Below are positions 421-30,327 of a stretch of 64,000 nucleotides of DNA, piece after piece. The position numbers and the translations under genes are program-made. Origin of the DNA: Chrysomallon squamiferum. Lineage: Eukaryota > Animalia > Mollusca. A model generated the notes under the pieces. It was not told the DNA's origin. It did no database searches and saw only the letters and a list, made by a program, of their open reading frames with translations. The DNA lies in contig CM022679.1 in the NCBI GenBank assembly GCA_012295275.1, positions 1,922,001 to 1,986,000 of the forward strand. The letters are read 5' to 3'. Each line of letters begins with the position of its first letter. Within the stretch, counting starts at the first letter, position 1.

Positions 421-669
421 ATTTGTTTATTATTTTTTTTATTATAATTATATTTAATGTATGAGTTTATATATCAGCAGTTTGCCTCCTAGCAAAACTG
501 TTTATTGATTTTAATAATGGTTATACTGGAATATTTAATGGATTATTTTAATAGAAAATTGTAGTTCTTGAGATTAGTTTATTTAAAAAGGATCATAAAA
601 TCTACAGATCCAGAACAGATCAGATGTAAATTTTCCTTTATTTTTTTCTCCCTTTTTTATTTTTTGCAG

Positions 670-6582: not shown

Positions 6583-6625
<43 letters not shown>

Positions 6626-9600
6626 ATACGTATGTTCTGACTGGAAGTTTTGTATATTTCAGACAGGAGAGAGTGCCTCTGTTGTGATGAGTTCATTGTC
6701 TACTTTCAGTAAAACTCTCATCAGAACTTTACCCGTTAACAAATCTCTCCTCATAGAAAAACAAAACCTTGGTAAGTTTAGTTTACTCAGTTTCTTCCTA
6801 ATTCAAAAGCAAAGTGTGCAAAGTCAGTGGAATGGTTGACAGTTGTTTATTTATTTAATAATTATAAATTTTGTTTCCTTGTTGTTTTTTAATAATAAAA
6901 ACTGACCAAACAGCCTTCAGATTACTGTATATAATAGTCACAATTGAAATAATGCCTATTGGTTATAAATAATCCAGTTCAGACTTTTAGCAGGATTGTT
7001 ATGAAATACATTTATTTTTGTTACATTTTCTGTAATTTATTAAAATGGATTGTAGATGAAAAGCATTCATGTAATTTCTAATGAGGATTTATTATTATTA
7101 TTTTTTTTTTCAATACAAGTAATGAAAGCAAGCAAGGAGTTTATTAATGCCATTACATTCCCAGAAATAACAACCACATTCCTACACATCCCTAAAGCTG
7201 CCCTGGTGAAACAGTTTGAAGGTTTGTTAACAGCTTTAAGTAAATAAATCAACATAGCATGTAACAGATTTAAGTAAATAAATCAACATAGCATGTAACA
7301 GATTTAAGTAAATAAATCAACATAGCATGTAACAGATTTAAGTAAATAAATCAACATAGCATGTAACAGATGTTATCTTGTTAGTTGACAGCTTTAAGTA
7401 AATAAATCAACATAGCATGTAACAAATGTTATCTTGAAGTCCATTAATTGAAAGTGCTGGATAAATCTTCCTCGCATTCATTTTTTAACAGTTCCCTGCT
7501 TATGTTATTTTTCTGTTTTATATAAGTTATCTATAGTGTTAAATGTAACAACTTCTCTCTTTTTCTTTCCTTTTTTTCTTTCTGTATATTGAAGTTTAAA
7601 TTTCTTTTTTTCCAGATGACATTGTGGAGTACTCCAGTGTTTTATACAAGTCACTTGCCAGCATTCTGCCTAATGCAGCAGTGAACAACACGTATGTTCT
7701 GTCTCATTACAAACTACTTAAATCCTGCTTTAAATTCCTCAAAGACAATATGATGATGAACATTACAAATTCATTGAAAGTAATTTTTCATAATTGTCAT
7801 TACCAAACTGTTTGTCAGGTTCAAACATTAATTTTTCATATTTTTATTAAGAAATTTATATTATTTAAATTTGGAAAGGAAATCTTGTATATTTAAGATT
7901 TTGCATGTGCAAAACTTCTTCTGGAAAATGTATGTAAAAAGTTCCATACTGCAGACAGAAAAAAATTGTGTTTCTTCTGCTTACTATGTATTGCAATTAT
8001 GAACTGATGAGAAAAAACAAAACAAAAAAAAAATATATATATATATATATATCATTGATATAAAGAAATGTCTGACATCCAAAAGACTACTGTAGAAAAT
8101 TAATATTGTATGATGATCTGGTTAAACGAAGGTCTGACATCCTTTTTCCTGTGATTAAAAACAAAAAAACAACATGCATATCATCTGTGTTGTTCAAAAT
8201 GTAACAAATAGAAACAGTATAAAATGGTAATTTCTGTATTAAATTTATTACTGTTACAATTAATTTTCAGAAACGTAGGCACTGAAATCAACACACAGGT
8301 GTTGACAATAGATTTTCCATCAAAAGCTCAGATTACCCTGGATCCTCCAGTAGAATTCACATTTGAACATATTGTAGTAAGTATTTTAACTGTTCATACA
8401 ATAAAATTTACATTTCAACATACTATAGTAAGTATCTTAACTATTTATACAGTAAAATTTACATTTAAACATATTGTAGTATTTTAACTATTCATGCAAT
8501 AAAATTTACATTTCAGCTTTTCGAACTGTTATCTGTTGAAAGAGACATAAATGTAACTTACTGAGAGAAAACATTCAAAGGATCATAATTAAACCCTCCA
8601 CCAATGTTTTATTTTATTTTTAATAAAACATTTCTCCAAAAGTACACTATTCCACCTGTTTTCAGTCTAATTCAATCTGGTTCAGATGAGATAATAATAA
8701 ACATGCACAAAATATTTATTAAAACTAATTACATGACATTGTGTACATAATTTCTTAAAACAGTAAATGTTTTCTTCATCCAATGTGATCTCTTAGACTT
8801 GATAAATTCTTTACTTCTTTAAAATAAAGGATTTAATATATTTGTGTTCACAGACAAACTTGAGTAATCCAGTCTGCAGTTACTGGGTGTTTGAAAACAA
8901 GTAAGTAATGAAATTACATGAACAGTAAATTAATTCTCTTTCTCAGTGGATGGTCTTTTAGACCACATCACCATCCTGACTCAACTATCCTGACTCAACA
9001 ACTATCCTGACTTCACTATCCTGACTCCACTCTCCCTACTTCTGTATCAGATTTCTCACCTTCCTGGAAAAATCCATTTTCCATTCTTTGATTGCTTCTT
9101 CTTCATTATTATCCTTTTATTCTTTCTCTTTTTATGTAGACATTGGTCTTTCATCTTCTATTTTTTATTAAACCAGTTCAAAATTTCGAGGAGGTTGGTC
9201 ATTTGAAGGATGTTGGACTGTGTTTCAAAACAAGTCATTCACTGGCTGTGCCTGTGACCATCTTACTAACTTTGCTGTTCTCATGAGTCCATCAGTTACG
9301 GTATGTGTAAACAAACTGTAGAATTACACAGTAGCAAATACAAAAACAAGTCTTAGGTCTCTGATCTGTTAGTCTATGGTAGAGGTGTCAGGTGAGAAAT
9401 AGTAGATTCTGAGATCATTCTTCAGATACATAATAGAGTGATTTCTGTATCATTCTAACCATGCCTACAGAAAATCAGAAAATAAATATGGGAAATAACT
9501 GTGTTTGTGAGCTTTTTGTTTTATTATTATTATTATCATCATTATCTTTTTTCTTTCTTGTTTTCAAGATAACTTGGTTAATAAAGTTCAGTATTCATTA

Positions 9601-12111
9601 TTAAGATTAAAATTTATAATAAAAAAAAAAATGAAAAATGAAATTGATGCACAAAAATGACCAATACTACAATATATTTTTAGACGTTAATAATTAGTTC
9701 ATAATATTAACTGTCCAGTAACTTTTTGTCAAGTGTTAGAAATTTCTAAGTGTTGAATTACAGTTCATGAATATATGTCTGTTATTTTCCAGTCTGAGTT
9801 TCACACGAAGGTGCTAGGAATCATCTCAATAGTTGGAATGGCTATTTCACTGCTCTGCACTTTGGCTACCATTGTTGTCTTCTTCCTCTTGTGGCGGTAA
9901 GTTTATAGAATTTTTTAAACATAGTCACATCTTTGTTACATAATTTAGTTAATAACTGTTACATTTCTTTTCATTAATATTTTTGGGTTGTTGTTCATTT
10001 ATCTTATTATATTATTTTTTTTTTTTTTTTTTTTTTTTTTTGGAAAACATTTATAAAAATTATGGAACAGAATTACAGTTCAAAAGGAAAATTAATTTTA
10101 CAAGATCTTTTTCCCTTTTATTTATAATTCATTGTTAATTGTATTACTTGTCATTTTATGTTTGTTAGCCATGAATGAGTTTACAATATTACCTTCACTT
10201 ACAGATTTTTATGTTAATTTTTAATAATCACATAACATCTGTTACAGCCATATCAAGTCTGACAAGAATTGCATTTTGCTTCATCTGTGTGTTGCTCTCA
10301 CCATAGCCTATGTCATCTTTCTCATAGGCATTGATCAAACTCAGAACAAGGTGAGTTAATACCTACTTCATGTTTCTCATAGACATTTACCAAACTCAGA
10401 ACAAGGTGAGTTAATACCTACTTCATGTTTCTCATAGGCATTGACCAAACTCAGAACAAGGTGAGTTAATACCTATTTCATGTTTCTCATAGGCATTGAC
10501 CAAACTCAGAACAAGGTGAGTTCAAACCTACGTAATCTTTCTCATAGGTATTAACCAAACTTGAAACAAAGTGAGTTAATACCTACTTCATGTTTCTCAT
10601 AGGCATTGACCAAACTCAGAACAAGGTGAGTTAATACCTATTTCATGTTTCTCATAGGCATTGACCAAACTCAGAACAAGGTGAGTTCAAACCTACGTAA
10701 TCTTTCTCATAGGTATTAACCAAACTTGAAACAAAGTGAGTTAAAACCTATGTCATTTTTCTTATAGGTATTGACCAATCTCAGAACAGGATGAGTTAAA
10801 ACCTAATATTAGATTTGCAGTGTGTAGGGTTTTTTTTGTATTGTTTTTTTATATGTGATAATAATGTATTTTTATGTGTCTTATAATCATTTTATTATTA
10901 CTACAATTTTAATAAAAATCTTTAATATGGTTATTGATAAAGTAATAATAATAGTTAAGGAAATAAAAAAGTTATCTTGTATCTAAGATGTGTTCCTTCC
11001 AATGTAAATAATGTTTCATCAGATTAATAATTGGTTTCTCATATTGGATGTCTGTTATTAGCTACATTTATTTACTCATTTTATTTTATTTTATTTTATT
11101 TTTTTATTTTATTTTTTTCATTCCAGATTGCTTGTATATCAGTGGCATTGATGCTGCACTATTTTTTCCTGGTTGTTTTTTTCCTCATGTTGTCTGAAGC
11201 AATCAGTTTACTAATTTCAATAGTCTATGTTTTTGCTACATCATCAAAACTCAAGTACTTTCTTCCTCTTGGATGGGGTTTGTATCATTTTTTAAAGTTG
11301 TTATTGTTGATTTTTTTAAAGAAATATTTTCTTCTGCAATAGCAAATTGGTAGAACATTCATGTGAAATGTGATGGGTCATAGAATTTCAAAAATAATGT
11401 GAAAAGACAAGTGTTACTTAAGATGTTTTTTCACTGTATTGTTTGTTTTTGTTAACACACATTGTTTCACTAGTGATTCAGATGGTTTCTGGGACTAAGC
11501 AGAATCAACAGTCCTCATTGTGTGCCCATATGTGCCATTCTTTCATTTCAGTTAAATAGTTTTATAGCAAAATTTCAAACAAAATTTCAAATAATTATCA
11601 AATGTCCAGTTACAATGTGAAAGAAGAAAAAAGGACAACAGTTTCCTGCAACTGCCAAATGACTGTATCGTTAAAATTTGTTTTTAAAATGTGTATAAGT
11701 TACTGCGAGTTTAATTTGATTTTTGTTGTTTTGTTGTTGTGTGACAGTGACTGTCTGCTTTCAGGCGTGCCACTGGTAATAGTTGCAGTTTCTGGAGGAG
11801 TGACAAAACTGCGAGGATACGGCACAGAGAGACAGTGAGTGTCTCCAGAATTTACTTTAAAATCTTTTAAATCTTAATTACAGCCTTGTTGCCTTAGCAA
11901 TAAAAAAATTACATGATGTTCATTATGATTATTTCCATAACATAGATATAATGAATGGTTTAACAGTTTCTGTAAATTAAAATGTATATGAAAATATATA
12001 TTTTTTCAATTCAAGAATTTCAAACATTGCATAAATAAACAGTTAATTTTTCATTTTTTTTTTTTTTTTTGTTATTTTATTTATTAGTATTTTTAGATTC
12101 AGTTTGTTGGG

Positions 12112-12142
<31 letters not shown>

Positions 12143-12688
12143 CTGGTTCATTAGTTGATTTGTTGGGGGAGTATTTTTGTTGGTAATTTGGTAATTATTT
12201 GAAAGATATTCGTATAGTATTTATCAGTTATCACAGCTGATTTACAAATGAGTTTTATGTGTTAAGTGAATATTTGATGTAAAGAGGGTCAATGGATCTG
12301 TTTCAGCTGCTGGTTGACTACTCAAAGTGGTCTGCTTTATGCTTTTGTTGGACCTGCCCTGGGTGTTATTGTTGTAAATATTATAAAACATACATTTGAA
12401 TTAATTAATATCACCTGATTCTGCATGTTTTGCTACTGCCAGTCTAATCAACAAGTATTATGTTATTTTGTGTTAACTTCAGTCAAAGCACAAAGCACAA
12501 GACTTATAACCAGCAGTTTTATACACATTTCATAAAGTAACCTTCATTTTTATTTATATTTGTTAAACTGTGTGTGTGTCCTTATTTTGCACCTGCTAAT
12601 TAAATTAAATGTTAATAACTTTTAAATATTAATAGCTATCACATTATTATACCAAAAATACTTTTTCATAGTTCTAGTAGTAGTAGTA

Positions 12689-12727
<39 letters not shown>

Positions 12728-15700
12728 TTGTTATTTTTGTTGTTTATTTATTTATTTATTTATATATTTATTTTTTTATTATTATTTTTATTATTATTTA
12801 TTTTTATTTTTTTTAAAGAACACTAAAAAAAAAATTAAAAATTAAAAAAAAATTCTGCTTTTGTAAAATTTAACTTCCACAGTTTTATTTCATACTTCAA
12901 TTCAGGTTAATGTACATTTTCATTAACAGGTTTTTTTTGACAGTTGTTTTAAAAGTTAAAAATAAATAAATATTTGTCTAAATTAGATGCCAAAATGTAA
13001 CTGTTATTTTAATTATTAAAAAAAAACATTTAAAAAAATAATATTTAAAAGTTAATACATGTAATATGATGGTTGTTACTAAGATGACATCAATTAACTG
13101 TTAAAATATTTGATTAAAACAAAAGATAATTTTATTTTTTTTATTATTTTTTTTTATTTATTAAAACAGACAAACTATGTGTTTGTTGCTATTTATTAAG
13201 ATGACATAAACAGAAATATTTTTTTTATTAAAACAGGCAAACTTTGTGGTGGTGGTTCTTGCTCTGAAAGCTTTGTACTCTACACATGCTATGATGTCCA
13301 AAACAAGAAGAGAAAAAATCAAGTAAGTTGAGCTGTTCTTGCATATTTTAAAATTACTTTTAATCAGCTGTGTATGGAATATCAACTCTCTCAGTACTTA
13401 GTCTTCATATTTTCTACATAAATCTGGCGTTATAATTTTAAATTATAGATATGACTGATATTTATTTATAATATTATTTTATATATATATATTGTTTTTT
13501 TTACATAGATCAGGTGTTAGAAGTATCAGTATTCTAAAAGTACTTGATTTTTATAACATAATATTTTTTTTTTTTTTTTTTTTTTACATAGATCAGGTAT
13601 TAGAAGTATCAGTATTCTATAAGTTCTTGATTTTTATAACATAATTTTATTATATTGTTTTTTTAATAGATCAGGTGTTAGAAGTATCAGTACTCTGGCA
13701 CCCATTCTTGGACTCACCTGGGTGTTTGGTGTGTTTTCTGTCAACCAGAATCTTGTTGTCTTTCAGTACTTGTTTGCCATTTTCAATTCACTTCAGGTAA
13801 ATACAAAGTATTTAGCTAAACACTGACTGTACTTCACACGCATGTGGATTATAATACATGTTCTGCAGTGTAACAGTCTTGTCAACACTTTTTATCCTCA
13901 GACATGACCTAGAAATCCTTTAAACTGTTCTTATCTTGATTGTGATGCTGACAAAACTGTTTATTTTCTTTAATTTTTGTTTTATTTTTAAAATTATTTT
14001 GATTGATTTATTGTCTCATCATACATATATCTTTAATCCTAAAATTATCAACTTTCCATAACATATCAAGCACAAATTCCTTAAACATTCATATGCTGTA
14101 ATTTTAATATTCTAGAATCCCAGTTTAAATTAGAAAAAACCTGTTAAAATTTAATTTTACCTTTTTGGTATATCTTTAAAGTAATTTAAAGTTATGCTCT
14201 ACTGTTGCTTGTTGTTTTTTTACAAATGTAATTTCAGGGTTTCTTCATCTTCCTCTTCCATTGTCTTCTCAGCAAGGCTGTAAGCATTTACAGATGTTTT
14301 CATTGATTTCTGTCACAAATTTAAACACTTCAGTCACAGCTACTAGTTGTTGTTTTTTTATATCGTTTTTTTGTATCACTGTCAATATGTGAAAGGTAGA
14401 TTTTGAAACAAACACACCTTTATTAATTTGTTCTAGTTTGATTAATATATATCAAAGTTTCAACACAACCACATTATAAGAAGCTAATTACACTTTAGAA
14501 TTACAACTTTCTCAATCTCATTGATAAGAATGAACAAAGCAAATTTTGTTATGAAGTAAAATTTCTGCTGTGTTGCTGAAGGTGACTGATGGATTTAGAC
14601 ACAAGTGGCAAGGGTACAAAGCAAGTCAGATTTCATCCACTGGAGCAGATCGCAAGATGAAGGACATATCTGTAAGTAGTCACAGCTCTGCCATAAAGAA
14701 AGAAAAAGATTTTAAAAAACACCTGACATACACATCTCACATCAGTGAAAATTGGAAGTATTCACGCATAATCTTCATGTTGAAAAACCCCAAACCCAGA
14801 CTTATTCATATATTATTTTCACAAAGAAGATAATAGTTTGATTACGTTTTTGATAAAATTAAAATTAGTTGGTTTCAAGAGGAGTTCAGTTCAAGAATGA
14901 GAGAATGCTAGTTCAGTAGTTTATCAGGCCACACTTGTAATCCAGGTTATAGTCTGATTTAAACTCTTGATATTTATTATCCAATGTGAAGAAAAGATTG
15001 CTTAATGCAAACATCAGTTGTTTTTTTGTTTTGTTTTTATTAGTAGTAAAAACTTTTTGTCATTTGTTTTTTTTATATTTAAGATAAAATATTACAACCC
15101 ATTAGTAAATCTTTTATACATTCAGATTAACTCCTGTTATTTATAATTTAATCAGTGTAGTTATGTTAATATGTGTAAACGTGTGTTCATTTCAGAAATC
15201 TACATCTGATACTGAGTATAAAAGAAGTAAGTGAAGCTTCACACTGTTAATTTAGAATTTTCAGATAAATGTTATCTACCATTTTATCCCTTAGGACCAA
15301 CCTTTGCCAAAAATAAAATGTGATAGTTGCATAATAAAATCATAAACAATTGTGAAGATACCTGATGTCACTAAATTTTATCTATATATTTCAATTAGGT
15401 CAGCCAAGAAGATAGTTATTACTTACATCTGTCATGTTGATTTTTATTATTATTAGTGTTGTTGTTGTTGTTGTTTACTATCACTACCTAACACTAATGA
15501 AGTGATATAATTAATAATAATTTTTATAATTTAATTAAGAAGCTGTACATTTTGTTTTAAATAACACACTTACATAGGTAAAAATATTTTAGTTTGTTTT
15601 ATATATTACAAATATTATTTATGCTTTTGTTATCCTATTACTTGTATTGTTAGTTTTTGTGTGTCTGTTCATGATTATGTCCATTTTGTTTCAGGAAAAT

Positions 15701-15801
15701 CAGAAGTGACTACTTTGAAAGATTCCACGGAATCAACTGACATTGATGTTCAGATATGTCAGAATCCACTCTTATCTTCAGACGTTAACATCAGACTTTA
15801 G
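670..15801 (+). CDS. Adhesion G protein-coupled receptor (5'-truncated by window): EGF/EGF-Ca - SEA - Ig - Ig - HRM - GAIN/GPS - 7TM
   Basis: Phase-compatible GT-AG exons: 670-864 ([23 protein letters not shown], Ca-EGF), 1214-1332, 1583-1641, 2120-2268 (SEA), 2673-2921, 3309-3536, 3985-4125 (Ig), 4441-4542, 4922-5028 (HRM: W.ETP.G..A...CP...R.C.....W..PD...C), 5256-5444, 6159-6230, 6663-6771, 7120-7221, 7616-7691, 8271-8376, 8854-8900, 9177-9300 (GPS: PVCSYW..W...GC...[13 protein letters not shown]), 9793-9896, 10248-10350, 11127-11277, 11765-11834, 12307-12373, 13237-13322, 13670-13796 ([19 protein letters not shown]), 14238-14279 (GFFIFLFHC), 14582-14671, 15196-15226, 15695-15801 (TAG). 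AATAAA at ~16804. Confidence 0.93.
2910..3040 (+). repeat. 3 x 44-bp tandem repeat spanning an exon end and 5' splice site
   Basis: ctaaagattcgg|gtaagtcaaatg, ctaaagattcag|gtaagtcaaatg and ctaaaaactcag|gtaagcaaaatg, with GT at 2922, 2966 and 3010. Confidence 0.85.
7229..7436. repeat. 34-bp minisatellite (~5 copies) starting just inside a GPCR intron
   Basis: Unit aacag(c/a)tttaagtaaataaatcaacatagcatgt begins 7 nt after the exon end at 7221. Confidence 0.9.
8356..8516 (+). repeat. ~51-bp tandem repeat (3+ copies) spanning a GAIN exon end and donor
   Basis: acatttgaacatattgta|gtaagtattttaac... is repeated as acatttcaacatactata|gtaagtatcttaac and acatttaaacatattgtagtattttaac. Confidence 0.85.
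10307..10806 (+). repeat. 9 x 55-bp tandem repeat spanning the TM2-exon end and GTGAGT donor
   Basis: Unit ctcataggcattgaccaaactcagaacaag|gtgagttaatacctacttcatgttt at 10321, 10376, 10431, 10486, 10541, 10596, 10651, 10706 and 10761. Confidence 0.95.
13495..13695 (+). repeat. 3 x ~80-bp tandem repeat spanning a 3' splice site and exon start
   Basis: ttt..atag|atcaggt(g/a)ttagaagtatcagta(t/c)tct with AG ending at 13508, 13591 and 13669. Only the last copy continues as the TM6 exon. Confidence 0.9.
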
Positions 15802-18255: not shown

Positions 18256-18519
18256 CTTTATTATTTTATTACCTTAAATTTAATTTAATTTAGTTGCTTT
18301 GTTCTGTACCTTAGGTGAACAGTCCCCCAGAAACACATTTTCAAGTATGAGTTCCTGTATTAGCCACTCTGAGGTGGGGGTATCATCACTCACCAGGTGA
18401 CTCACTGTTGCTGCATTCAAGGTACAGATCAAAAAAATAATGGTGAGGAATTATAAAAAAATAAAAATAAAAATAAATAAAATAAAATAAAATAAATATT
18501 CAATAGAAAAAGGTTTATA

Positions 18520-20166
18520 AAGAAGGTGTTTGTATGCAAGAAAATGACAGTAGGATCTTCCATCTCTCTTCCATCTAGGGTGTGTTTTTGTTGTATGCAT
18601 GATATGGAAGAAGAAGAAGAAGAAGAAGAACAATTAAATAACAAAATAAATAAATAAATAAATAAAAATAAATTAGAAAAAAAAAAAAAAAAGAAAAAAT
18701 AAATAAATCTAAACAAATTAAAATTAAACCAAAAATAATAAAAAATAATAAATAAAACAATAATAAAATAAAAAGTAATTAAAAAAAAATAATAAATAAA
18801 ATAAAATAAAAAAATAAAAAGAAAATAAGAAAAAAAGAGGACATTGTTTGAAATAAAATGAAACATTAAATGAAAGGAAAATGTCAGTGTGATCTTCCAT
18901 CTCTTCCATCTAGGGTGTGTTTTTTGTTGTGTGCATAATAATAATAAATAACAAAATAAATAAATAAATAAATAAATAAAAATAATAAATTAAAAAAAAA
19001 AGAAAAAAAATCTATTAGGAAACCAAAAAATAAAAAGTAAATAAATAAGTAAGTGCATAAATAAATAAATAAACAAATAAAATAAAAAAAATAATAAAAT
19101 AATAATAATAATAATAAGTAATTAAAAAAAAAAGTAATTAAAAAAAAAAAATAAATAATAAGAAAAAGAAGTTAGAAAAAGAAAATAAGAAAAAAGAGGA
19201 CAGTGAAAGATGTTTGAATAATCTGTTTGTATGAAGGAAAATGTCAGTGTGATCTTCCATCTCTCTTCCATCTAGGGTGTGTTTTTGTTGTGTGCATGAT
19301 GTGGAAGAAGAAGAAGAAGAAGAAGAAGTAAAAATAAATAACAAAATAAATAAATAAATAAATAAATAAAAATAAATAAATTAAAAAAAAGAAAAAAAAT
19401 AAATAAATAAAAAAGTAAATAAATAAATAAAAAAATAAAAATAAATTAAATAATAATAATAATAAAAAATAAATAAGAAAAAAATCTATTAGGAAACCAA
19501 AAATAAAAAAAAAAAAAATAAATAAAAAAAAAAGAAGTTAGAAAAAGAAAATAAGAAATAAATAAATAAATAAATAAATAAAATGTCAAATAAAATGAAG
19601 AAGAAGAAGAAAAGAAGAAGTCAAAATTAAAAAAAGTAAATAAATAAGTAAGTGCATAAATAAATAAATAAATAAATAAACAAATAAAATGAAGAAATTC
19701 AAAATTAAATAATAATAATAATAATAATAAAAAGTAATTAAAAAAAGAAGTTTGAAAAAGAAAATAAGAAAAAAGAGGTCAGTAAAAGATATTTGGATAA
19801 TATGTTTGTATGCAGGAAAATGTCTGTGTGATCTTCCATCTCTCTTCCATCTAGAGCATGTTTTTGTTGTGTGCATGATGTGGAAGAAGAAATTACTAAT
19901 GAAACAACAAAATAAACAGATAAATAAATAAATAAATAAAAGAGAAGATAATCAAAATTACTTAATTAATTAATTAATTAATTAATAAGAAGAAGAAGAA
20001 GAAGAAGAATTACTAACAAAACAACAAAATAAATAGATAAATAAATAAAAGAGAATATAATCAAAATTAATTAATTAATCATAATAATAATAAAAATAAG
20101 AAGAATTACTAACAAAATAACAAAATAAATAAACGAGAAGATAATCAAAATTAATTAATTAATTAA

Positions 20167-20229
<63 letters not shown>

Positions 20230-20301
20230 TAAGAAGAAGAATTACAAAACAACAAAATAAATAGATAAATAAATAAATAAAAGAGAAAATAGTCATAATT
20301 A

Positions 20302-20337
<36 letters not shown>

Positions 20338-20519
20338 CATAAAAATAATAAGAAGAAGAATTACTAACAAAACAACAAAATAAACAGATAAATAAATAAA
20401 TAAATATAAGAGAAGATAATCAATTAATTAATTAACAATAATAATAATAAGAAGAATTACTAAAAAAACTACAAAATAAATAAATAAAAGAGAAGATAAT
20501 CAAAATTAATTAATTAATC

Positions 20520-20561
<42 letters not shown>

Positions 20562-21050
20562 AAAAAACTAATAAAAAAAGAAGTTTGAAAAAGAAAATAA
20601 GAAAAAAGAGGTCAGTTAAAAATATTTGAATAATATGTTTGTATGCAGGAAAATGTCTGTGTGATGATCTTCCATCTAACTTCCATCTAGGGTGTGTTTT
20701 TGTTGTATGCATCATGTGGAAGAAGAAGAAGAAGAAGGTATTACTTACAAAACAACAAAATAAATAAATATATAAATTAGAGAGAAGATAATCAAAATTA
20801 ATTAATAATAATAACAACAACAACAACAATAAAAAGTAATTAAAAAAAGAAGTTTGAAAAAGAAAATAAGAAAAAAGAAGACAGTAAAAGATGTTTGAAG
20901 AAGATGTTTGTATGCAATGGCAGTGGGATTTCCATATCTTGACTCTTCTTTCTTCTTGGTCTTCCTTCTTCCATGTAGGGTGTATTCGTGTTGTTTGCAT
21001 GATGCAGAGGAAGAAAAAAAAAAAAAAAAAAAAAATTAGGAAAAAGAATT
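18520..21050. repeat. Degenerate complex tandem array: ~6 copies of an ~90-bp core embedded in expanded A-rich microsatellites
   Basis: Core tgtttgtatg(c/a)aggaaaatgtc.gtgtgatcttccatctctcttccatctagggtgtgtttttgttgt.tgcatgat.tggaagaagaag at ~18526, ~18875, ~19225, ~19803, ~20636 and ~20904, separated by AAT, AAAT and GAA runs. Confidence 0.88.
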
Positions 21051-22937: not shown

Positions 22938-23862
22938 TGATTGTTATCCGACGCTTGAATGGCTAGATCCAGACTCAGTAAGTGCTTTATTTATTTCAAG
23001 CAGAAAAAATACGAGGAAAACTTCGTGAATGCAGGGGAGACCGGGGCAGGCTGGGGCACGTTTCTCATTTTAATATCTGATTCAGATACAAAGCTTGTTA
23101 AATATATTATAAACAAAATAAATACACTCAGATAAATTCTGAACCAGAATGTACAGACAAAGCTAGAGCTGGGCCTGTAATAATAAGACTTTTTGACCCG
23201 TTGCCTTTTGTTAACGGCACGTCTTAGAGTCTCTATCGGAACACGAAAAGCTGTTTCTCGCAGCAATGTTCCCAGACAATCAATTAATTAATCAATCAAT
23301 ATATCTTTTAATGTCCAGTTGACTATTTCATTGGTATCAGGAATTAAATTACTAAAGATGTACAAGAAAATTAATTTATAATAACACACACATTTAGGGA
23401 GTGGCCGAACCTACCCGGCACGACCTTGCACCAGCTTGAAAACTCGCGTGTGTCAAATAGCACTGGGATGTCAGCTGCAGATCTGGCTTATCTAAAACAA
23501 TAAGTGGACAAAAAACGGAAAGAAATTAATTTCTGTATTGTTAATTGTCAGGTGGCCTACCCTGCCCTGGTCTTCCCTATACGATATAATATCACAGAAA
23601 GAGAAGGAACAATCTAAATAATCTCGTTAAAAAAGATTTCAGAGTCATTTTTATCATCAGTTTAGTGTTACTCAAATATAATTACTTGGGAGTATAAATG
23701 TTCTAATATCTAGATGTTTTGTTCGTATCACTTTAATTAACGAAAACCTCATGGTTGGAAATAACGACAAGAAACGGAGAGAAAAAATATATATATTTCT
23801 GTATATTAATATAGTCTTTCAGCGTAAAGATGTACATAACTCACGAGAAGATATTAGGTTTT

Positions 23863-24999
23863 CTAACGAAACATAATCAACGGAGCCATGAATGCAGCAA
23901 AGAGAAAGAGCGCGAAACAAATGCGATTTCCGTTAAAAGCGAACGTTTTTTCACTGGTGGTAGACTCGTCTACAAACCAGCTGATTATCCCGCGGACGTA
24001 AAGTCTACCGCCAAAGTCTCTGAATTGCTTGGAGTTGAAATTCAACAGCGCTATCATCGCTACGTTTGCTAAAGCACAGTTCGCGAGAATGAGAGAAAGA
24101 TAGAGTTCAAAGTTGGTGATGTCTGTCGATGTTCGTGGAATGAATTTGACAATAAAGTTAAAGAACATGCTGTAGGACACTAGAATGTTTATCAGGTATC
24201 CCATCTGCTCTCCAGGGGTAGGGGGAAATAGAAATGCCACTGGTGTCACGAACGAAAGTAAAAAGAGAGGAATTAACGTACTGGTAATGTAGAACAGGTT
24301 TTTACGCAGTAGAGTCAGCTGAATTTCTGCAATTTCAATTTTGTGATCCAAACCTAAATGAATCACATGGTTATTTAAATCCTTTAGAATCCATTCGCTG
24401 GCTATGTCGAAAAAATCGTTAAGACTAAAATCCGTTTTCATGAAGTGAAACTGGTAGCGCGCACCGTGCATTCCGGTAATTGAAAGTTTGCAGTGTTGGG
24501 TGTCGAACGGGAAACGGCTGGTATCAAGTCTGCAAGCAGTTTTGGAGATTCCGTGTATTTCGTACATCACCAGACCAGAAGACGATACAACAAAAGGAAT
24601 ATCAGATTCCATTTTTTGACTTTCAATTGAATTGAGAAGCAAAAGGGTTGGTTTCCATAAAGCTTTCGCAGACATTTGAATTTCTCTGATGTCTCCGTAC
24701 TCAGCTGGATCCCACACGAGTCGAGGATCTAACCAGAGAAACGTATAAAACGTTTCAAAATAAAATGTCTGTCCAAAATGGCCGATGTCAATGACTGCTA
24801 CGGGAGTGAGATGTACGAAGACTGTATCATTACTTTCTTTGAGAATCGCTGGAGTATGGCGGGAATATCCAGTCAACAGATCTTTTGTAAGCTGTTGGTA
24901 TTCTAGACTTTGTGTGATGGCGTCTGAAGACGCTGTTGCAGTAGATATTATGAGCACAACACCAAGAAGAAAACACGTTACACAAAGGTTTTCAGTCAT
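23863..24999 (-). CDS. Intronless divergent Cys-loop ligand-gated ion channel subunit (nAChR-like, non-alpha), 378 aa
   Basis: Signal peptide MTENLCVTCFLLGVVLIISTATA; W.D.RL.W.P..Y motif; LWKP loop A; Cys-loop C-x13-C (CRLDTSRFPFDTQHC); SEW; LRK..FY..L.P; GEQ before M2; P-RTS in the M2-M3 loop; four hydrophobic helices. Single open frame. Confidence 0.93.
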   Translation of the reverse strand: MTENLCVTCFLLGVVLIISTATASSDAITQSLEYQQLTKDLLTGYSRHTPAILKESNDTVFVHLTPVAVIDIGHFGQTFYFETFYTFLWLDPRLVWDPAEYGDIREIQMSAKALWKPTLLLLNSIESQKMESDIPFVVSSSGLVMYEIHGISKTACRLDTSRFPFDTQHCKLSITGMHGARYQFHFMKTDFSLNDFFDIASEWILKDLNNHVIHLGLDHKIEIAEIQLTLLRKNLFYITSTLIPLFLLSFVTPVAFLFPPTPGEQMGYLINILVSYSMFFNFIVKFIPRTSTDITNFELYLSLILANCALANVAMIALLNFNSKQFRDFGGRLYVRGIISWFVDESTTSEKTFAFNGNRICFALFLFAAFMAPLIMFR

Positions 25000-25613
25000 T
25001 GTTAATTTAAGAAATAATAATTAATTTCAAAACGACCGATGACTTATAACCAGACTATGTGATACAAACTGTAGTGACAGGCTTGCTGCAGCTACTCTTC
25101 AGCTGACGCTTCGAGACGAAACAGTTTCTGAAACTTTAGCTGACCTTGTTTGTAAATCGAGCAATCATAAAATATGACAACATGATTATATGGTTATTTA
25201 CATGAAAGGAATCATTTAACAAATTAATAAACGTAAAAACTTTATTGACTGTCAGTGACTTTATACACACATGGTATAAACTTGTGCAGCAAGTTCTTCT
25301 ATTAGATTATTATCACACTGGATAAAGCCGCGATTGTATGTTTATAGAAAACTAATTTTCGAACAATTTATCAAAACAATATATACAATAAACGCAAACA
25401 TTTTATAGCCTTTTTAGGAACCTTTTAAACAGAAATCAATTTTTATCGTTATACAGAATCTACAACCGTTATAACAAATAGAAACAGTTGTTGTTTATTT
25501 CACTTAAAAACATACTCAGACTGCTGGAGCTTTGCAAGATACACACTGATCGCGTGCTTCTCTGTAGTACACAGATAAAAAAAAATTATAATTTAAAAAA
25601 TATATATATCACA
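25000..25613. promoter_or_regulatory. Putative bidirectional promoter shared by the two Cys-loop channel genes
   Basis: Only 614 bp lie between the divergent ATGs (24999 on -, 25614 on +). TATA-like tataaa at ~25275. Inferred from geometry. Confidence 0.55.
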
Positions 25614-28600
25614 ATGTTAAGAATTTTAAAATATTCTTTCATTTTCTTTCTGGTTTTCCGACGATCGTGTGTTCGAAACAAAAACAAGAATCAAGCATAA
25701 TTACCGTTAGGAAAGACCACTTTCAATCGGAAACAGAGCCAGATTCGGAGATTAGTAGACTAAGACAGTCCAGTAATCCAGAGACGGAACTTTACAAAGG
25801 AGAAAAAACGTCAAGAAACATATTTGTGACAGAAGCATTTAGTGATAATTTTAAATTTCTGAGTAATGGAGCTAAAGCCAGAGCAAAGAAAAGCATATTA
25901 CAGGATGACAAAACAGCTGATAAATCTACAACGTATGCAAAAGTCACAAGCGAAGGAGTATTAAAAGGTACTGATACCACAACGAAAACAGCTACAAATA
26001 TATTTCAAACCACAATTTCACTAGTTTCAGGGTCTACACAAACTGTAGCAAGAAATACATTTGGAATGGAAAAAGCAGGAAAACCTCAGCCCGCAAATCA
26101 TATAGTAACTGACAGTCCTGCTTCAGGCGAAATTATTTCAGAAACCAAAAATACACAGGTATCTGTCAATCAGACTGATTTGGAATCAACTTCCACGATG
26201 ATTCCAAAAACCTCTAATTCTGAAACCACCAGTCAAGCTAATAAAGAAATCAACAGTCAAATTGACAAAGAAACCAGCAATCAAGCTAATAAAGAAATCA
26301 ACAGTCAAACTGACAAAGAAACCAGCAGTCAAACTAATGCAGAAATCAACAGTCAAACTGACAAAGAAACAAGCAGTCAAGCTAATGCAGAAATCAACAG
26401 TCAAACTAACCAAGAAACCAGTAGTCAAACTAACAAAGAAACCAGCAGTCAAACTGACAAAGAAACCAGCAGTCAAACTAACGCAGAAATCAACAGTCAA
26501 ACTAACAAAGAAACCAGCAGTCGAGCTAATGCAGAAATCAACAGTCAAACTAACAAAGAAACCAGCAATCAAGCTAATACAGAAATCAACAGTCAAACTG
26601 ACAAAGAAACCAGCAATCAAGCTAATACAGAAATCAACAGTCAAACTAACAAAGAAACCAGCAGTCAAGCTAATACAGAAATCAACAGTCAAACTGACAA
26701 AGAAACCAGCAGTCAAGCTAATAAAGAAATCAACAGTCAAACTGACAAAGAAACCAGCAGTCAAGCTAATACAGAAATCAACAGTCAAACTGACAAAGAA
26801 ACAAGCAGTCAAGCTAATGCAGAAATCAACAGTAAAACTGACAAAGAAACCACCAATCAAACTAATGCAGAAATCAACAGTCAAACTAACCAAGAAACAA
26901 GCAGTCAAGCTAATGCGGAAATCAACAGTCAAACTGACAAAGAAACCAGCAGTCAAGCTAATGCAGAAATCAACAGTCAAACTAACAAAGAAACAAGCAG
27001 TCGAGCTAATGCAGAAATCAACAGTCAAACTAACAAAGAAACAAGCAGTCGAGCTAATGCGGAAATCAACAGTCAAACTAACAAAGAAACAAGCAGTCAA
27101 GCTAATGCAGAAATCAACAGTCAAACTAACAAAGAAACAAGCAGTCAAGCTAATGCAGAAATCAACAGTCAAACTAACAAAGAAACAAGCAGTCAAACTA
27201 ATGCAGAAATCAACAGTCAAACTAACAAAGAAATCAAGCAGTCAAACTAATGCACAAATCAAACAGTCAAACTAACAAAGCAAGCAGTCAAACTAATGCA
27301 GAAATCAACAGTCAAACTAACAAAGAAACAAGCAGTCAAACTAATGCAGAAATCAACAGTCAAACTAACAAAGAAACAAGCAGTCAAGCTAATGCAGAAA
27401 TCAACAGTCATGCTGACAAAGAAACCACCAATCAAACTAATGCAGAAATCAACAGTCAAACTGACAAAGAAACAAGCAGTCAAGCTAATGCAGAAATCAA
27501 CAGTCAAACTGACAAAGAAACCACCAATCAAACTAATGCAGAAATCAACAGTCAAACTGACAAAGAAACAAGCAGTCAAACTAATGCAGAAATCAACAGT
27601 CAAACTGACAAAGAAACCAGCAGTCAAGCTAATGCAGAAATCAACAGTCAAACTGACAAAGAAACAAGCAGTCAAGCTAATGCAGAAATCAACAGTCAAA
27701 CTGACAAGGAAACCAGCAGTCAAACTAACGCAGAAATCAACAGTCAAATTGACAAAGAAACCAGCAGTCAAGCTAATGCAGAAATCAACAGTCAAACTAA
27801 CCAAGAAACAAGCAGTCAAGCTAATGCAGAAATCAACAGTCAAACTGACAAAGAAACAAGCAGTCAAGCTAATGCAGAAATCAACAGTCAAACTGACAAA
27901 GAAACCACCAATCAAACTAATGCAGAAATCAACAGTCAAACTAACAAAGAAACAAGCAGTCAAACTAATGCAGAAATCAACAGTCAAACTGACAAGGAAA
28001 CCAGCAGTCAAACTAATGCAGAAATCAACAGTCAAACTGACAAAGAAACAACCATTCAAACTAATGCAGAAATCAACAGTCAAACTGACAAGGAAACCAG
28101 CAGTCAAACTAATGCAGAAATCAACAGTCAAACTGACAAAGAAACAACCATTCAAACTAATGCAGAAATCAACAGTCAAACTGACAAAGAAACCACCAAT
28201 CAAACTAATGCAGAAATCAACAGTCAAACTGACAAAGAAACAAGCAGTCAAACTAATGCAGAAATCAACAGTCAAACTGACAAAGAAACAAGCAGTCAAA
28301 CTAATGCAGAAATCAACAGTCAAACTGACAAGGAAACCAGCAGTCAAACTAACGCAGAAATCAACAGTCAAACTAACAAAGAAACAAGCAGTCAAACTAA
28401 TGCAGAAATCAACAGTCAAACTGACAAAGAAACAAGCAGTCAAACTAACGCAGAAATCAACAGTCAAACTGACAAAGAAACAAGCAGTCAAACTAATGCA
28501 GAAATCAACGGTCAAACTGACAAAGAAACAAGCAGTCAAACTAATGCAGAAATCAACAGTCAAACTAACAAAGAAACAAGCAGTCAAACTAATGCAGAAA

Positions 28601-30327
28601 TCAACAATCAAACTGACAAGGAAACAACCAGTCAAGCTAATGCAGAAATCATCGATCAGAATAAACCAAGTTTATCAAAAAATGAATCTTTTTTATCAAC
28701 TTCTGAAACACCGTCATCAACAACTGCTAAAACGTTATCAGCAACGACATTATCTGAAGAGGTATCCAAAATTTCAGAAGTTGCCGACCCAAATGACAAA
28801 GAAACTACAAATCAAACAACAATAAACTGTTTTAATGCCACTGGAAGTATTAAATCTTTTACAGGCAATAATGTTATAACTGAAGACGCAACCAGCGGCG
28901 TTACGAACACCACTGAAGATCTCACCCAGACCGCATCGGTGACAAATTTGAAAACACCAACTGTTCCAGCAACCAGTACAAATAACGATGGTGCCACCAT
29001 GGAAACCACTTCAGTTACTTTAAACGACCCTACATTAGAAACTCTAGCCGCAGTCTCAGGCGACATTCATCTTTCTTCTCCAGGTGTAGAAACAACTATT
29101 CCCGGTAAATTATCTTCTTCGAGTAAAATAACAACTTCGGCCGCAGCAGAATCTATCACATCAACATCAACAACTTTGACTGTTGATGAATATACGACGC
29201 CAACCGAGGTCTCAACTGAGAATCATAAAGCTAGCAGATTATTCAGAATTAATCGGCTTAAGAAAATAAAACATATATTAGCATACAATAAACTTGTCAA
29301 ATATTTAATGAAGAATTACAATGTAATCGTCCCTTCCTTTTGTCGACTGTTTGGGAACAACACCATCGTCGTATCAGTACTACCAGTGGCGGTTCTAGGG
29401 ATTAACGAGGTGGAACAAATTTTATTGTTTCAGGGAATGTTTCGATTCAAATGGTTCGACAAACGATTGTCGTGGAATCCTGATGACTATGGCGGCCTTG
29501 AAACGATTGAGATTGACTCGAGTTTAATCTGGAAACCGAAGATCCTCATCATTAACTCGGCTGAGGGCGAATCCCTGAAAAGCAACATTCCTTTGCTGCT
29601 GCACCACACTGGTTACGTGACTGAAGAGAAGCATGGGATATCAAAAACAACGTGCGAGGTAAACACGTCCCGCTATCCGTTTGACGCTCAGAGGTGCAAG
29701 CTGTCGTTCGGTGGTATTCAGGGCATGAAGTACAACTTTGTCCTGGACGATCCAGACCATTCACTGGGACGTCATTTTTTAATAAACAGCGAATGGAATT
29801 TCAAACAAATAGACGGTCGTGTATCCGAAATCTATTTCACGTCCTCGGGTTTTTCAGACGTTGCTGAATACACTGTGCACGTTGAACGGAAGAGTCCATT
29901 TTACGTCGTGAGCAACATTTTTCCCATATTTCTACTCTCCTTAATGACGTCTTTTGTTTTTCTTTTCCCGCCAGTGTCTGATGAAAAAGTGGGCTATTTG
30001 ATTTCCATTTTTGTTTCGTATGCAATATTCTTGAACTTTATAACTGAATCCATGCCACGAACGTCGACTTCTGTTTCCAATATGGAAACTTACCTTCTGC
30101 TCGTTCTCATACATTGTGCTTCAGCTGTTGTCGTAGCAGCATTCACCGAAGGGTGGAGATCGGAGAGTCGCGTCTGTGCAGTTGATTATTTTAAGTCAGC
30201 GGAGCAAAAAGAAAAGGCAGAATTTAAAAAGAAAGAAAATGCCTTGAAACAACGCCGCGTGGATTATATCTACTTTACACTGTATCTGACAGCATCTTGC
30301 TTCTTCCTCTTTTGTTTTTATTTGTAA
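25614..30327 (+). CDS. Intronless Cys-loop channel subunit with giant N-terminal tandem-repeat/mucin-like extension (~1570 aa after correcting two frame disruptions at ~25655 and ~27235-27281)
   Basis: ATG at 25614 gives MLRILKYSFIFFLVF, which joins PTIVCS/KQKQ of the 25667 ORF if one base is added in the TTTT/CC run. ORFs 25667-27250 and 27250-30327 encode the same repeat in register. The C-terminal ~350 aa has WFDKRLSWNPDDYGG, IWKP, CEVNTSRYPFDAQRC, NSEW, ERKSPFYV..IFP, DEK-M2, PRTS and M4. A pseudogene cannot be excluded. Confidence 0.85.
26227..28650 (+). repeat. Coding minisatellite, 48-bp unit (two related 24-bp halves), ~50 copies, encoding SQT(D/N)KETS-SQ(A/T)NAEIN
   Basis: agtcaaact(g/a)acaaagaaac(c/a)agc + agtcaa(g/a)ctaatgcagaaatcaac repeated continuously over ~2.4 kb. 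Confidence 0.97.

What the first reader, a model, noticed from the sequence alone, without database searches (positions are those of the whole stretch)
23863..30327. Head-to-head pair of intronless paralogous orphan Cys-loop receptors: candidate co-expressed heteromeric sensory channel
Seen: two single-exon channel genes diverge from a 614-bp spacer in a region where every other gene has introns. They share unusual motifs (HGISKT.C...TSR.PFD.Q.CKLS..G..G..Y.F; FLFPP; GYLI.I.VSY..F.NFI; PRTST...N.E.YL.L.L), so they look like sister paralogues from an old inverted duplication of a retroposed ancestor. Established: molluscs have expansions of intronless nAChR-like genes (bivalves), and cephalopod chemotactile receptors are acetylcholine-insensitive nAChR derivatives. 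Inference: a shared promoter could co-express a plain subunit and a repeat-bearing subunit that co-assemble, forming a self-contained two-gene sensory module.
Basis: partly seen in the sequence, partly recalled or inferred. Interest (0 to 1): 0.8.

Follow-up and report, generated by a model that had tools for sequence, protein, structure and literature searches.

The report
Snail orphan channel with giant stalk
Two facing genes with intron-free coding regions, likely from a sea snail, encode acetylcholine-receptor-like channel subunits that lack the acetylcholine-binding residues; they likely belong to a published mollusc gene expansion, but one is predicted to carry an unusual 1,200-residue repetitive outer stalk, and co-assembly or a sensory role is untested.

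Summary
Both genes are real Cys-loop subunits, head-to-head, with 614 bp between ATGs and 41% identity over 290 aa. Gene A is one 378-codon frame. Gene B has two frame breaks in the window that the finding does not mention. The first is absent in 3 of 3 covering runs (assembly error); the second lies in a 50.6 x 48-bp repeat and is untested. Read through, B is about 1,570 aa: a predicted signal peptide, about 1,200 Ser/Thr-rich residues, then the channel. Its 3' part is under purifying selection (9 of 10 SNPs synonymous). Both genes sit in a 24-row clade whose named members are all gastropods and whose rows all lack the acetylcholine site. A Gigantopelta protein falls between A and B (A+B sisters in 2 of 1000 bootstraps; AU test does not reject), so the duplication is probably old. 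They are no closer to octopus CRT1 than to ordinary nAChRs. Intronless pairs are published for molluscs, this window holds two other head-to-head pairs, and the scan noted a similar mussel cluster before. The unusual part is B's stalk. Co-expression, co-assembly and sensory function remain untested.

The parts
23863..24999 (-). Gene A coding frame: 378-aa nAChR-like subunit with predicted signal peptide (hydrophobic residues 5-23), LBD, Cys156-x13-Cys170, four TM helices and a short M3-M4 loop
   Evidence: ORF and Pfam; hydropathy; AlphaFold2 mean pLDDT 79.5 with pLGIC fold, Z 25.7 to nAChR; no coding indel in 3 covering runs
25000..25613 (.). 614-bp divergent spacer, 30% GC; candidate shared promoter (inferred)
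   Evidence: Length and GC; 8 SNP positions and 5 indel rows at about 3 places in the runs; TATA-like words occur on both strands but are uninformative at this AT content
25614..26246 (+). Gene B 5' part: ATG, predicted signal peptide (judged by eye; no predictor available), then 197 Ser/Thr-rich non-repetitive codons. The window has a one-base frame break at 25654-25657
   Evidence: Frames; extra base in X1, X2 and X6; chance of 197 open codons about 8e-7
26222..28651 (+). Tandem array, 50.6 x 48 bp (16 aa, EINSQTDKETSSQTNA-type, about 33% Ser+Thr, acidic, no Cys or Pro); predicted disordered, mucin-like. Second frame break at 27207-27301 (units of 49 and 46 bp)
   Evidence: TRF 93% matches; unit table; run contigs end at both edges of the array
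28620..29229 (+). Non-repetitive Ser/Thr-rich stalk (38% S+T, 4 N-glycosylation sequons), in frame with the channel domain
   Evidence: 3 of 3 SNPs synonymous in this frame and non-synonymous in the other two + frames, P=0.016; chance of about 200 open codons 5e-6
29236..29265 (+). Basic motif RLFRINRLKK just before the LBD; two R-x-x-R words, a possible convertase site (consensus recalled). The third Arg is Gln in runs X2 and X4
   Evidence: Sequence; SNP at 29255
29278..30327 (+). Gene B channel part, 349 aa: LBD, Cys-x13-Cys loop (29653-29697), four TM helices, stop
   Evidence: Pfam; AlphaFold2 mean pLDDT 85.7; 6 of 6 SNPs synonymous and no coding indel in 4 runs

Best explanation
The two genes encode divergent nAChR-like subunits that lack the acetylcholine-binding residues and likely form cation-selective pentameric channels opened by some other, unknown ligand; they likely arose by an old local duplication with inversion within a gastropod expansion of such genes, and are likely co-regulated from the short spacer. 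Gene B later gained, likely by internal tandem amplification, a roughly 1,200-residue Ser/Thr-rich segment between signal peptide and ligand-binding domain. That segment is predicted to be an O-glycosylated, mucin-like tether on the outer face, possibly clipped at the RLFRINRLKK motif to leave a normal-sized subunit. Shown: frames, fold, residue losses, clade, coding constraint on B's stalk and channel. Inferred: cation selectivity, co-regulation, glycosylation, cleavage. Untested: heteromer formation (my estimate about 0.35) and expression in sensory epithelium (about 0.35).
For: Fold and family. Binding site: against a fish alpha7-like row, A has F/L/M and B has M/I/I at the W55/Y93/W149 columns, and neither has the loop C Cys pair. 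In the 24-row clade 0 of 24 have loop B Trp, 0 of 24 loop A Tyr and 0 of 24 loop C CC. Pore: Glu at M2 -1' in both genes and in 21 of 24 clade rows; GEK-type motifs mark cation selectivity (PMC13174522 section 3.4.3). Clade: 100/98 support. All 12 clade rows that carry a name are gastropod: Gigantopelta 4, Haliotis 6, Littorina 1, Lymnaea 1; Bulinus rows fall in the wider clade. B is alive: first break absent in 3 of 3 covering runs; 9 of 10 SNPs synonymous, P=1.5e-5. The stalk is lineage-specific: the closest relative P0002 (46% identity) has its LBD at residue 65. Intronless genes and two-gene arrays are common in molluscs (PMC6896357).
Against: The second frame break in B is untested; if it is real, this allele gives a truncated protein without a channel. 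An acceptor-like site at 29083 could allow a spliced short form. Gene A shows 0 synonymous and 4 non-synonymous codon changes (two in the signal peptide; Fisher against B p=0.015 for all runs, 0.07 for the same three runs), so purifying selection on A is not shown. A and B differ in the pore: A has Gln 0', Asn 6' and Lys 20', B has Lys, Ser and Glu. Selectivity is predicted from motifs only. In the Torpedo alignment B keeps a Tyr at the alpha1 Y190 position, so loop C is not wholly remodelled; the multiple alignment places this loop differently.
Confidence: 0.6

Rival explanations
1. First reader's module: a bidirectional promoter co-expresses A and B in sensory epithelium, where they co-assemble as an obligate heteromeric chemosensory channel, with B's stalk holding it in mucus or a microbial film.
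For: 614-bp divergent spacer and 41% identity; loss of the ACh site. Head-to-head genes under 1 kb tend to co-express (PMC4089025, abstract). CRs are intronless nAChR derivatives that form homo- and heteropentamers (PMC11526382, passages). The short M3-M4 loop is seen in the models.
Against: Two other head-to-head pairs of unrelated genes lie in the same 64 kb. The family profile scores CRT1 58th of 60 shown (194.6 bits against 236.6), and the model gives Z 19.9 (CRT1) and 19.6 (CRB1) against 25.7 for nAChR. Expanded molluscan nAChR-like genes are also expressed in gill, gonad and early embryos and respond to stress and infection (PMC6896357).
Confidence: 0.2
2. The pair is decaying or only half functional: B's repeat allele is truly frameshifted or the repeat is intronic, and/or A drifts neutrally, as many intron-poor molluscan copies are silent.
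For: Second break at 27207-27301. Two of the three + frames through the repeat are open, so openness of the repeat itself proves little. A has 4 of 4 non-synonymous changes. 31% of intron-poor nAChRs in pearl oyster had no or low expression (PMC6896357).
Against: The first break is an assembly error of the same kind. The second is a cluster of three small indels within about 70 bp, whereas the other units in the table are 48 bp or a multiple. B's stalk and channel show strong purifying selection. A has no stop or coding indel in 3 runs, and 0 of 4 synonymous is compatible with chance (P=0.37).
Confidence: 0.12
3. They are accessory non-alpha subunits that co-assemble with a conventional alpha subunit encoded elsewhere, in an acetylcholine-gated receptor.
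For: Best PDB hits are alpha7 and muscle nAChR; databases name the relatives 'acetylcholine receptor subunit ...-like'.
Against: Identity of A's model to solved nAChRs is only about 18-23%. The complementary-face Trp55 is Phe in A and Met in B and varies freely across the clade, and loop B is 2-3 residues shorter. A long stem separates the clade from the alpha subunits.
Confidence: 0.08

Closest known systems
Expanded intronless molluscan nAChR-like genes (Jiao et al. 2019, PMC6896357; read parts 1-3 of 6: abstract, background, results, start of discussion)
   Same: Intronless coding frames, LBD-TM architecture, local duplication (16 two-gene pairs in oyster, 18 in pearl oyster), degenerate ACh site, lineage-specific clades.
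   Different: In the parts read, no head-to-head pair under 1 kb and no long low-complexity N-terminal stalk is described, although lengths up to 2013 aa and extra domains are noted. Their supplements were not read.
Gigantopelta aegis XP_041376553.1 (P0002; automatic name 'neuronal acetylcholine receptor subunit alpha-2-like')
   Same: Closest named relative: 46% to B and 39-41% to A; same small clade (97/94); same loss of binding residues.
   Different: 436 aa with no stalk; Asp-Ala-Lys rather than Glu at M2 -1'; an Asn/Ser-rich insert in loop C. Its gene structure and neighbours could not be fetched.
Cephalopod chemotactile receptors CRT1/CRB1 (PMC11526382 passages; bioRxiv 10.1101/2025.10.28.685082 passages; PMC13174522 section 3.4)
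   Same: nAChR-derived, intronless, altered orthosteric pocket, no ACh signature.
   Different: No closer in sequence or structure than other pLGICs; CRs are predominantly cephalopod; ligand and tissue are unknown here. Whether this clade equals the broad 'CR-like' clade of PMC13174522 was not testable.
Alvinella pompejana Alpo4 (PMC10338036, passages)
   Same: Orphan lophotrochozoan nAChR-like channel without the loop C Cys pair and unresponsive to ACh; Z 23.4 to the model of A.
   Different: Alpo4 keeps key aromatic binding residues according to the paper; it is annelid, has no stalk, and was solved as a homopentamer.
Rodent GABA-A epsilon subunit with a long N-terminal Pro/Glx repeat (recalled only; searches did not confirm it)
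   Same: If recalled correctly, a lineage-specific tandem repeat inserted before the LBD of a Cys-loop subunit.
   Different: Anion-channel branch, intron-rich gene, shorter and compositionally different repeat.

Membership tests
Cys-loop pentameric ligand-gated ion channels | Beta-sandwich LBD followed by four TM helices | tested here: met
   Pfam PF02931 above the gathering score in both genes (100.8 and 106.6 bits against 26); PF02932 just under it (23.9 and 25 against 28.1); four TM helices in both models; Z 25.7
Cys-loop pentameric ligand-gated ion channels | Cys-x13-Cys loop with the conserved Pro | tested here: met
   A: C156-C170; B: C126-C140 of the channel part; PFD present in both
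Cys-loop pentameric ligand-gated ion channels | Assembles as a pentamer and conducts ions when liganded | not testable with these tools
   Needs electrophysiology
Alpha-type nicotinic acetylcholine receptor | Vicinal Cys pair in loop C | tested here: not met
   Absent in A, in B and in all 24 clade rows
Alpha-type nicotinic acetylcholine receptor | Aromatic box Y93, W149, Y188/190, Y195/198 | tested here: not met
   A has L, M, L, I at these columns and B has I, I, F, S; B keeps one Tyr at Y190 in the pairwise Torpedo alignment
Conventional non-alpha nAChR subunit | Complementary-face Trp55 and placement with beta-type subunits | tested here: not met
   Phe in A, Met in B; separate long-stem clade. 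No named vertebrate beta subunit was in the tree.
Expanded intronless molluscan nAChR-like genes (Jiao 2019) | Intronless or intron-poor gene with LBD-TM architecture in a mollusc | tested here: met
   Coding frames without introns; all named close relatives are gastropod. UTR introns not testable.
Expanded intronless molluscan nAChR-like genes (Jiao 2019) | Local duplication into arrays or pairs | tested here: met
   Adjacent paralogues in one 3-member clade
Expanded intronless molluscan nAChR-like genes (Jiao 2019) | Assignment to one of the paper's numbered families; origin by retroposition | not tested
   The paper's sequences were not obtained; intron status of the relatives was not fetched
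Cephalopod chemotactile receptors (CR) | Falls in the CR clade in a tree with CR sequences | tested here: inconclusive
   None of the 30 looked-up hits was a named CR, so no tree test was made; similarity ranks CRT1 below alpha7 and muscle nAChRs
Cephalopod chemotactile receptors (CR) | Expression in sensory epithelium and gating by hydrophobic ligands | not testable with these tools
   Needs tissue RNA and electrophysiology

The most novel reading that the evidence does not exclude
A self-contained, bidirectionally transcribed two-gene ionotropic sensor in a (probably vent-dwelling) snail: a plain subunit co-assembles with a subunit bearing a 1,200-residue mucin-like tandem-repeat tether, which anchors the channel in mucus or a microbial coat, or must be clipped off to license gating. 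It would represent a gastropod-wide clade of acetylcholine-blind chemoreceptors that arose independently of cephalopod CRs.
Probability: 0.15. Interest if true: 0.75.

Novelty: new variant of a known kind. Interest (0 to 1): 0.4.

Why it matters
Whether the many orphan nAChR-like genes of non-cephalopod molluscs are chemoreceptors is an open question stated in PMC13174522. A tightly linked pair gives a defined two-subunit test case for deorphanisation. A Cys-loop subunit with a 1,200-residue glycosylated stalk would stretch the known ectodomain architecture of the family and suggest tethering or proteolytic control of gating. If the stalk is not made, the locus is an ordinary member of a published expansion.

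Tried and rejected
No whole genome is held, so other paralogues in this genome could not be counted; at 85-90% likeness the runs showed no second long copy of either channel domain. No RNA holder listed: no evidence either way on expression. The A+B complex prediction was not run because the queue was full; a pass would in any case have been expected from likeness to solved pentamers. Synteny through TMEM26 failed: 6 hits, none with a species name. Word-index homologue searches were insensitive: 1 hit for A and 2 for the profile, missing P0002. The Atlas gave only generic LBD clusters. The Pfam Fibrinogen_BP hit on the repeat is taken as a composition match and rejected. Among 160 homologues no comparable stalk was seen: the longest N-terminal parts were P0003 (629 aa, Cys-rich, probably a fused model), P0062 (403) and P0060 (315), the last two outside the clade; the search used the channel domain and listed only the best 150 of 7985 hits. 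Literature searches for a mucin-like extension on a pLGIC (6 papers listed, none on topic by title and abstract start), a head-to-head nAChR subunit pair, vent-snail nAChRs and gastropod divergent nAChR chemoreceptors found no description of this locus or architecture; subscription papers and supplements were not seen, and PMC10262778 is not held. Spacer motif scanning was uninformative. The first run of the site-mapping script failed on a pattern and was rerun.
Full report
Observation. Gene A reads ATG 24999 to the stop at 23863-23865 on the minus strand, 378 aa in one frame. Gene B starts at ATG 25614, 614 bp away, and ends at 30327. Both carry a Pfam Neur_chan_LBD hit above the gathering score and a Neur_chan_memb hit just below it. 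Both have a Cys-x13-Cys loop and four hydrophobic helices, and AlphaFold2 models with the pLGIC fold (mean pLDDT 79.5 and 85.7). A's model matches nAChRs best (Foldseek; Z 25.7, rmsd 3.8 over 341 residues). The channel parts are 41% identical over 290 aa. The identifiable neighbours are multi-exon: an adhesion-GPCR-like gene, TMEM26, PMM, a TSEN54-like and a KATNIP-like gene (the name KATNIP for DUF4457 is recalled).

Gene B is broken twice in the window. The ATG frame closes after 28 codons and the long frame begins one base off; a second net one-base shift lies at 27207-27301. Four runs were laid on 23700-26200. Three covered it (X1, X2, X6; two studies), and all three have one more T at the first break, which puts the ATG and its hydrophobic leader in frame with the rest. 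One of these runs may be the window's own source, but all three differ from the window, so this break is an assembly error. The second break is three small indels within about 70 bp of a 50.6 x 48-bp array. It looks like the same kind of error but could not be tested, and the run contigs stop at both edges of the array.

Is the long N-terminal part coding? Openness of the repeat is weak evidence, since two of three + frames are open there. The non-repetitive flanks are stronger: 197 and about 200 open codons, each with a chance of about 1e-6 to 5e-6. In 28660-30324 four runs show 10 SNPs, 9 of them synonymous (P=1.5e-5). Three of these lie in the stalk upstream of an acceptor-like site at 29083; all three are synonymous in the channel's frame and non-synonymous in the other two + frames (P=0.016). 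The channel part has no leader of its own. Read through, B would be about 1,571 aa with about 1,220 aa before the channel part, 28-38% Ser+Thr and nearly free of Cys, followed by RLFRINRLKK. That motif holds two R-x-x-R words (convertase consensus recalled); its third Arg is Gln in two runs. B's 5' part has two non-synonymous SNPs and one that is synonymous in the in-frame allele (worked out by hand). Gene A differs: 5 SNPs give 4 codon changes, all non-synonymous (N4D, C9T, L231Q, I283T). This is compatible with chance (P=0.37) but is a weak hint of relaxed or diversifying selection (Fisher p=0.015 against all of B, 0.07 for the same three runs).

Relatives. An exhaustive search with B's channel part gave 7985 hits, of which the best 150 were listed. 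The top hit is Gigantopelta aegis XP_041376553.1 (P0002, 46%), followed by unnamed ENA and Logan proteins and more Gigantopelta and Haliotis proteins. A FastTree of 152 rows puts A and B in a 53-row clade (100) apart from conventional alpha subunits and bivalve groups. An IQ-TREE mixture tree of 31 hand-picked rows gives a 24-row clade (100/98), and in it (A,(B,P0002)) with 97/94 for the trio and 87/55 for B+P0002. In a 20-row tree the bootstraps split B+P0002 723, A+P0002 274 and A+B 2 of 1000 (one replicate in none of these). The AU test does not reject A+B (p=0.107). The duplication therefore probably predates the split from the Gigantopelta lineage, which fits 'old' but not strictly 'sister'. 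DNA similarity between the two halves of the locus is limited to a 44-nt coding match at 77%. All 12 named rows of the 24-row clade are gastropod, so the window is likely from a gastropod and probably a relative of Gigantopelta (inference; other notes on this genome say the same). P0002 has no stalk, and no comparable stalk was seen among 160 homologues.

Ligand site and pore. Mapped on a fish alpha7-like row, the whole 24-row clade lacks loop A Tyr (0 of 24), loop B Trp (0 of 24) and the loop C Cys pair (0 of 24); loop B is 2-3 residues shorter in the clade rows displayed. Of the 24 rows, 21 keep Glu at M2 -1' and 23 have Val at 9'. Cation selectivity is predicted from the -1' Glu (PMC13174522, section 3.4.3). 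There is no special link to cephalopod CRs: CRT1 is not among the top 60 PDB hits for either gene, ranks 58th for the family profile, and scores Z 19.9 against 25.7 for nAChR, 23.4 for Alpo4 and 20.7 for ZAC. No CR sequence was available for a tree.

Head-to-head layout. The same window holds a TSEN54-like/KATNIP-like pair with predicted ATGs 329 bp apart and TMEM26/PMM 2.1 kb apart, so divergent neighbours are ordinary here. About 10% of eukaryotic genes are so arranged and tend to co-express (PMC4089025, abstract). Co-regulation is therefore plausible but says little about co-assembly.

Comparison with what is known. Jiao et al. 2019 (PMC6896357, parts 1-3 of 6 read) report 11-120 intronless nAChR-like genes per mollusc, 16-18 two-gene arrays in two bivalves, degenerate ACh sites and varied expression in gill, gonad and embryo. 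MolluscaGenes (PMC13174522; passages and section 3.4) lists divergent clades with altered binding residues, including a CR-like clade across gastropods, bivalves and chitons, and leaves their function open. CRs are intronless and form homo- and heteropentamers (PMC11526382, passages). Alpo4 is an orphan precedent (PMC10338036, passages). The scan earlier noted a mussel cluster of the same general kind. Searches for a mucin-like extension on a pLGIC and for a head-to-head subunit pair found no description. A rodent GABA-A epsilon repeat insertion is recalled but was not confirmed.

Verdict. These are two real, orphan, likely cation-selective subunits of a published type of molluscan expansion. 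The pair arrangement is ordinary. The lineage-specific, selectively constrained, roughly 1,200-residue Ser/Thr-rich extension of B is the unusual feature, pending proof that the repeat is in frame and retained in mRNA. New variant of a known kind; interest 0.4. The full heteromeric sensory-module reading has a probability of about 0.15-0.2.

Noticed in passing
window 48179 (-) / 48509 (+): TSEN54-like and KATNIP-like genes are head-to-head with predicted ATGs only 329 bp apart; TMEM26 (33530, -) and PMM (35666, +) are also divergent.
   Followed up: partly
window 18500-21000: Degenerate A-rich array with six copies of a conserved block of about 90 bp (anchors at 18570, 18905, 19267, 19846, 20682, 20970) separated by microsatellite-like filler; not identified.
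   Followed up: no
window about 600-15800 (+): Multi-exon adhesion-GPCR-like gene with EGF, Ig-like, HRM (weak) and 7tm_2 exons.
   Followed up: partly
window 23866-24999 (-): All four codon changes seen in gene A are non-synonymous, one in M2 (I283T) and one just before the pre-M1 Arg (L231Q), against mostly synonymous changes in gene B; possibly relaxed or diversifying selection.
   Followed up: partly
proteins P0003, P0007 (Bulinus truncatus): Members of the same wider clade annotated as multi-domain concatemers (2-3 channel units; P0003 with a Cys-rich N-terminal part), probably fused models of tandem arrays.
   Followed up: no
protein P0002 (Gigantopelta aegis): The closest relative has Asp-Ala-Lys instead of Gly-Glu-Lys at the M2 start and an Asn/Ser-rich insert in loop C, so selectivity may differ within the small clade.
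   Followed up: no
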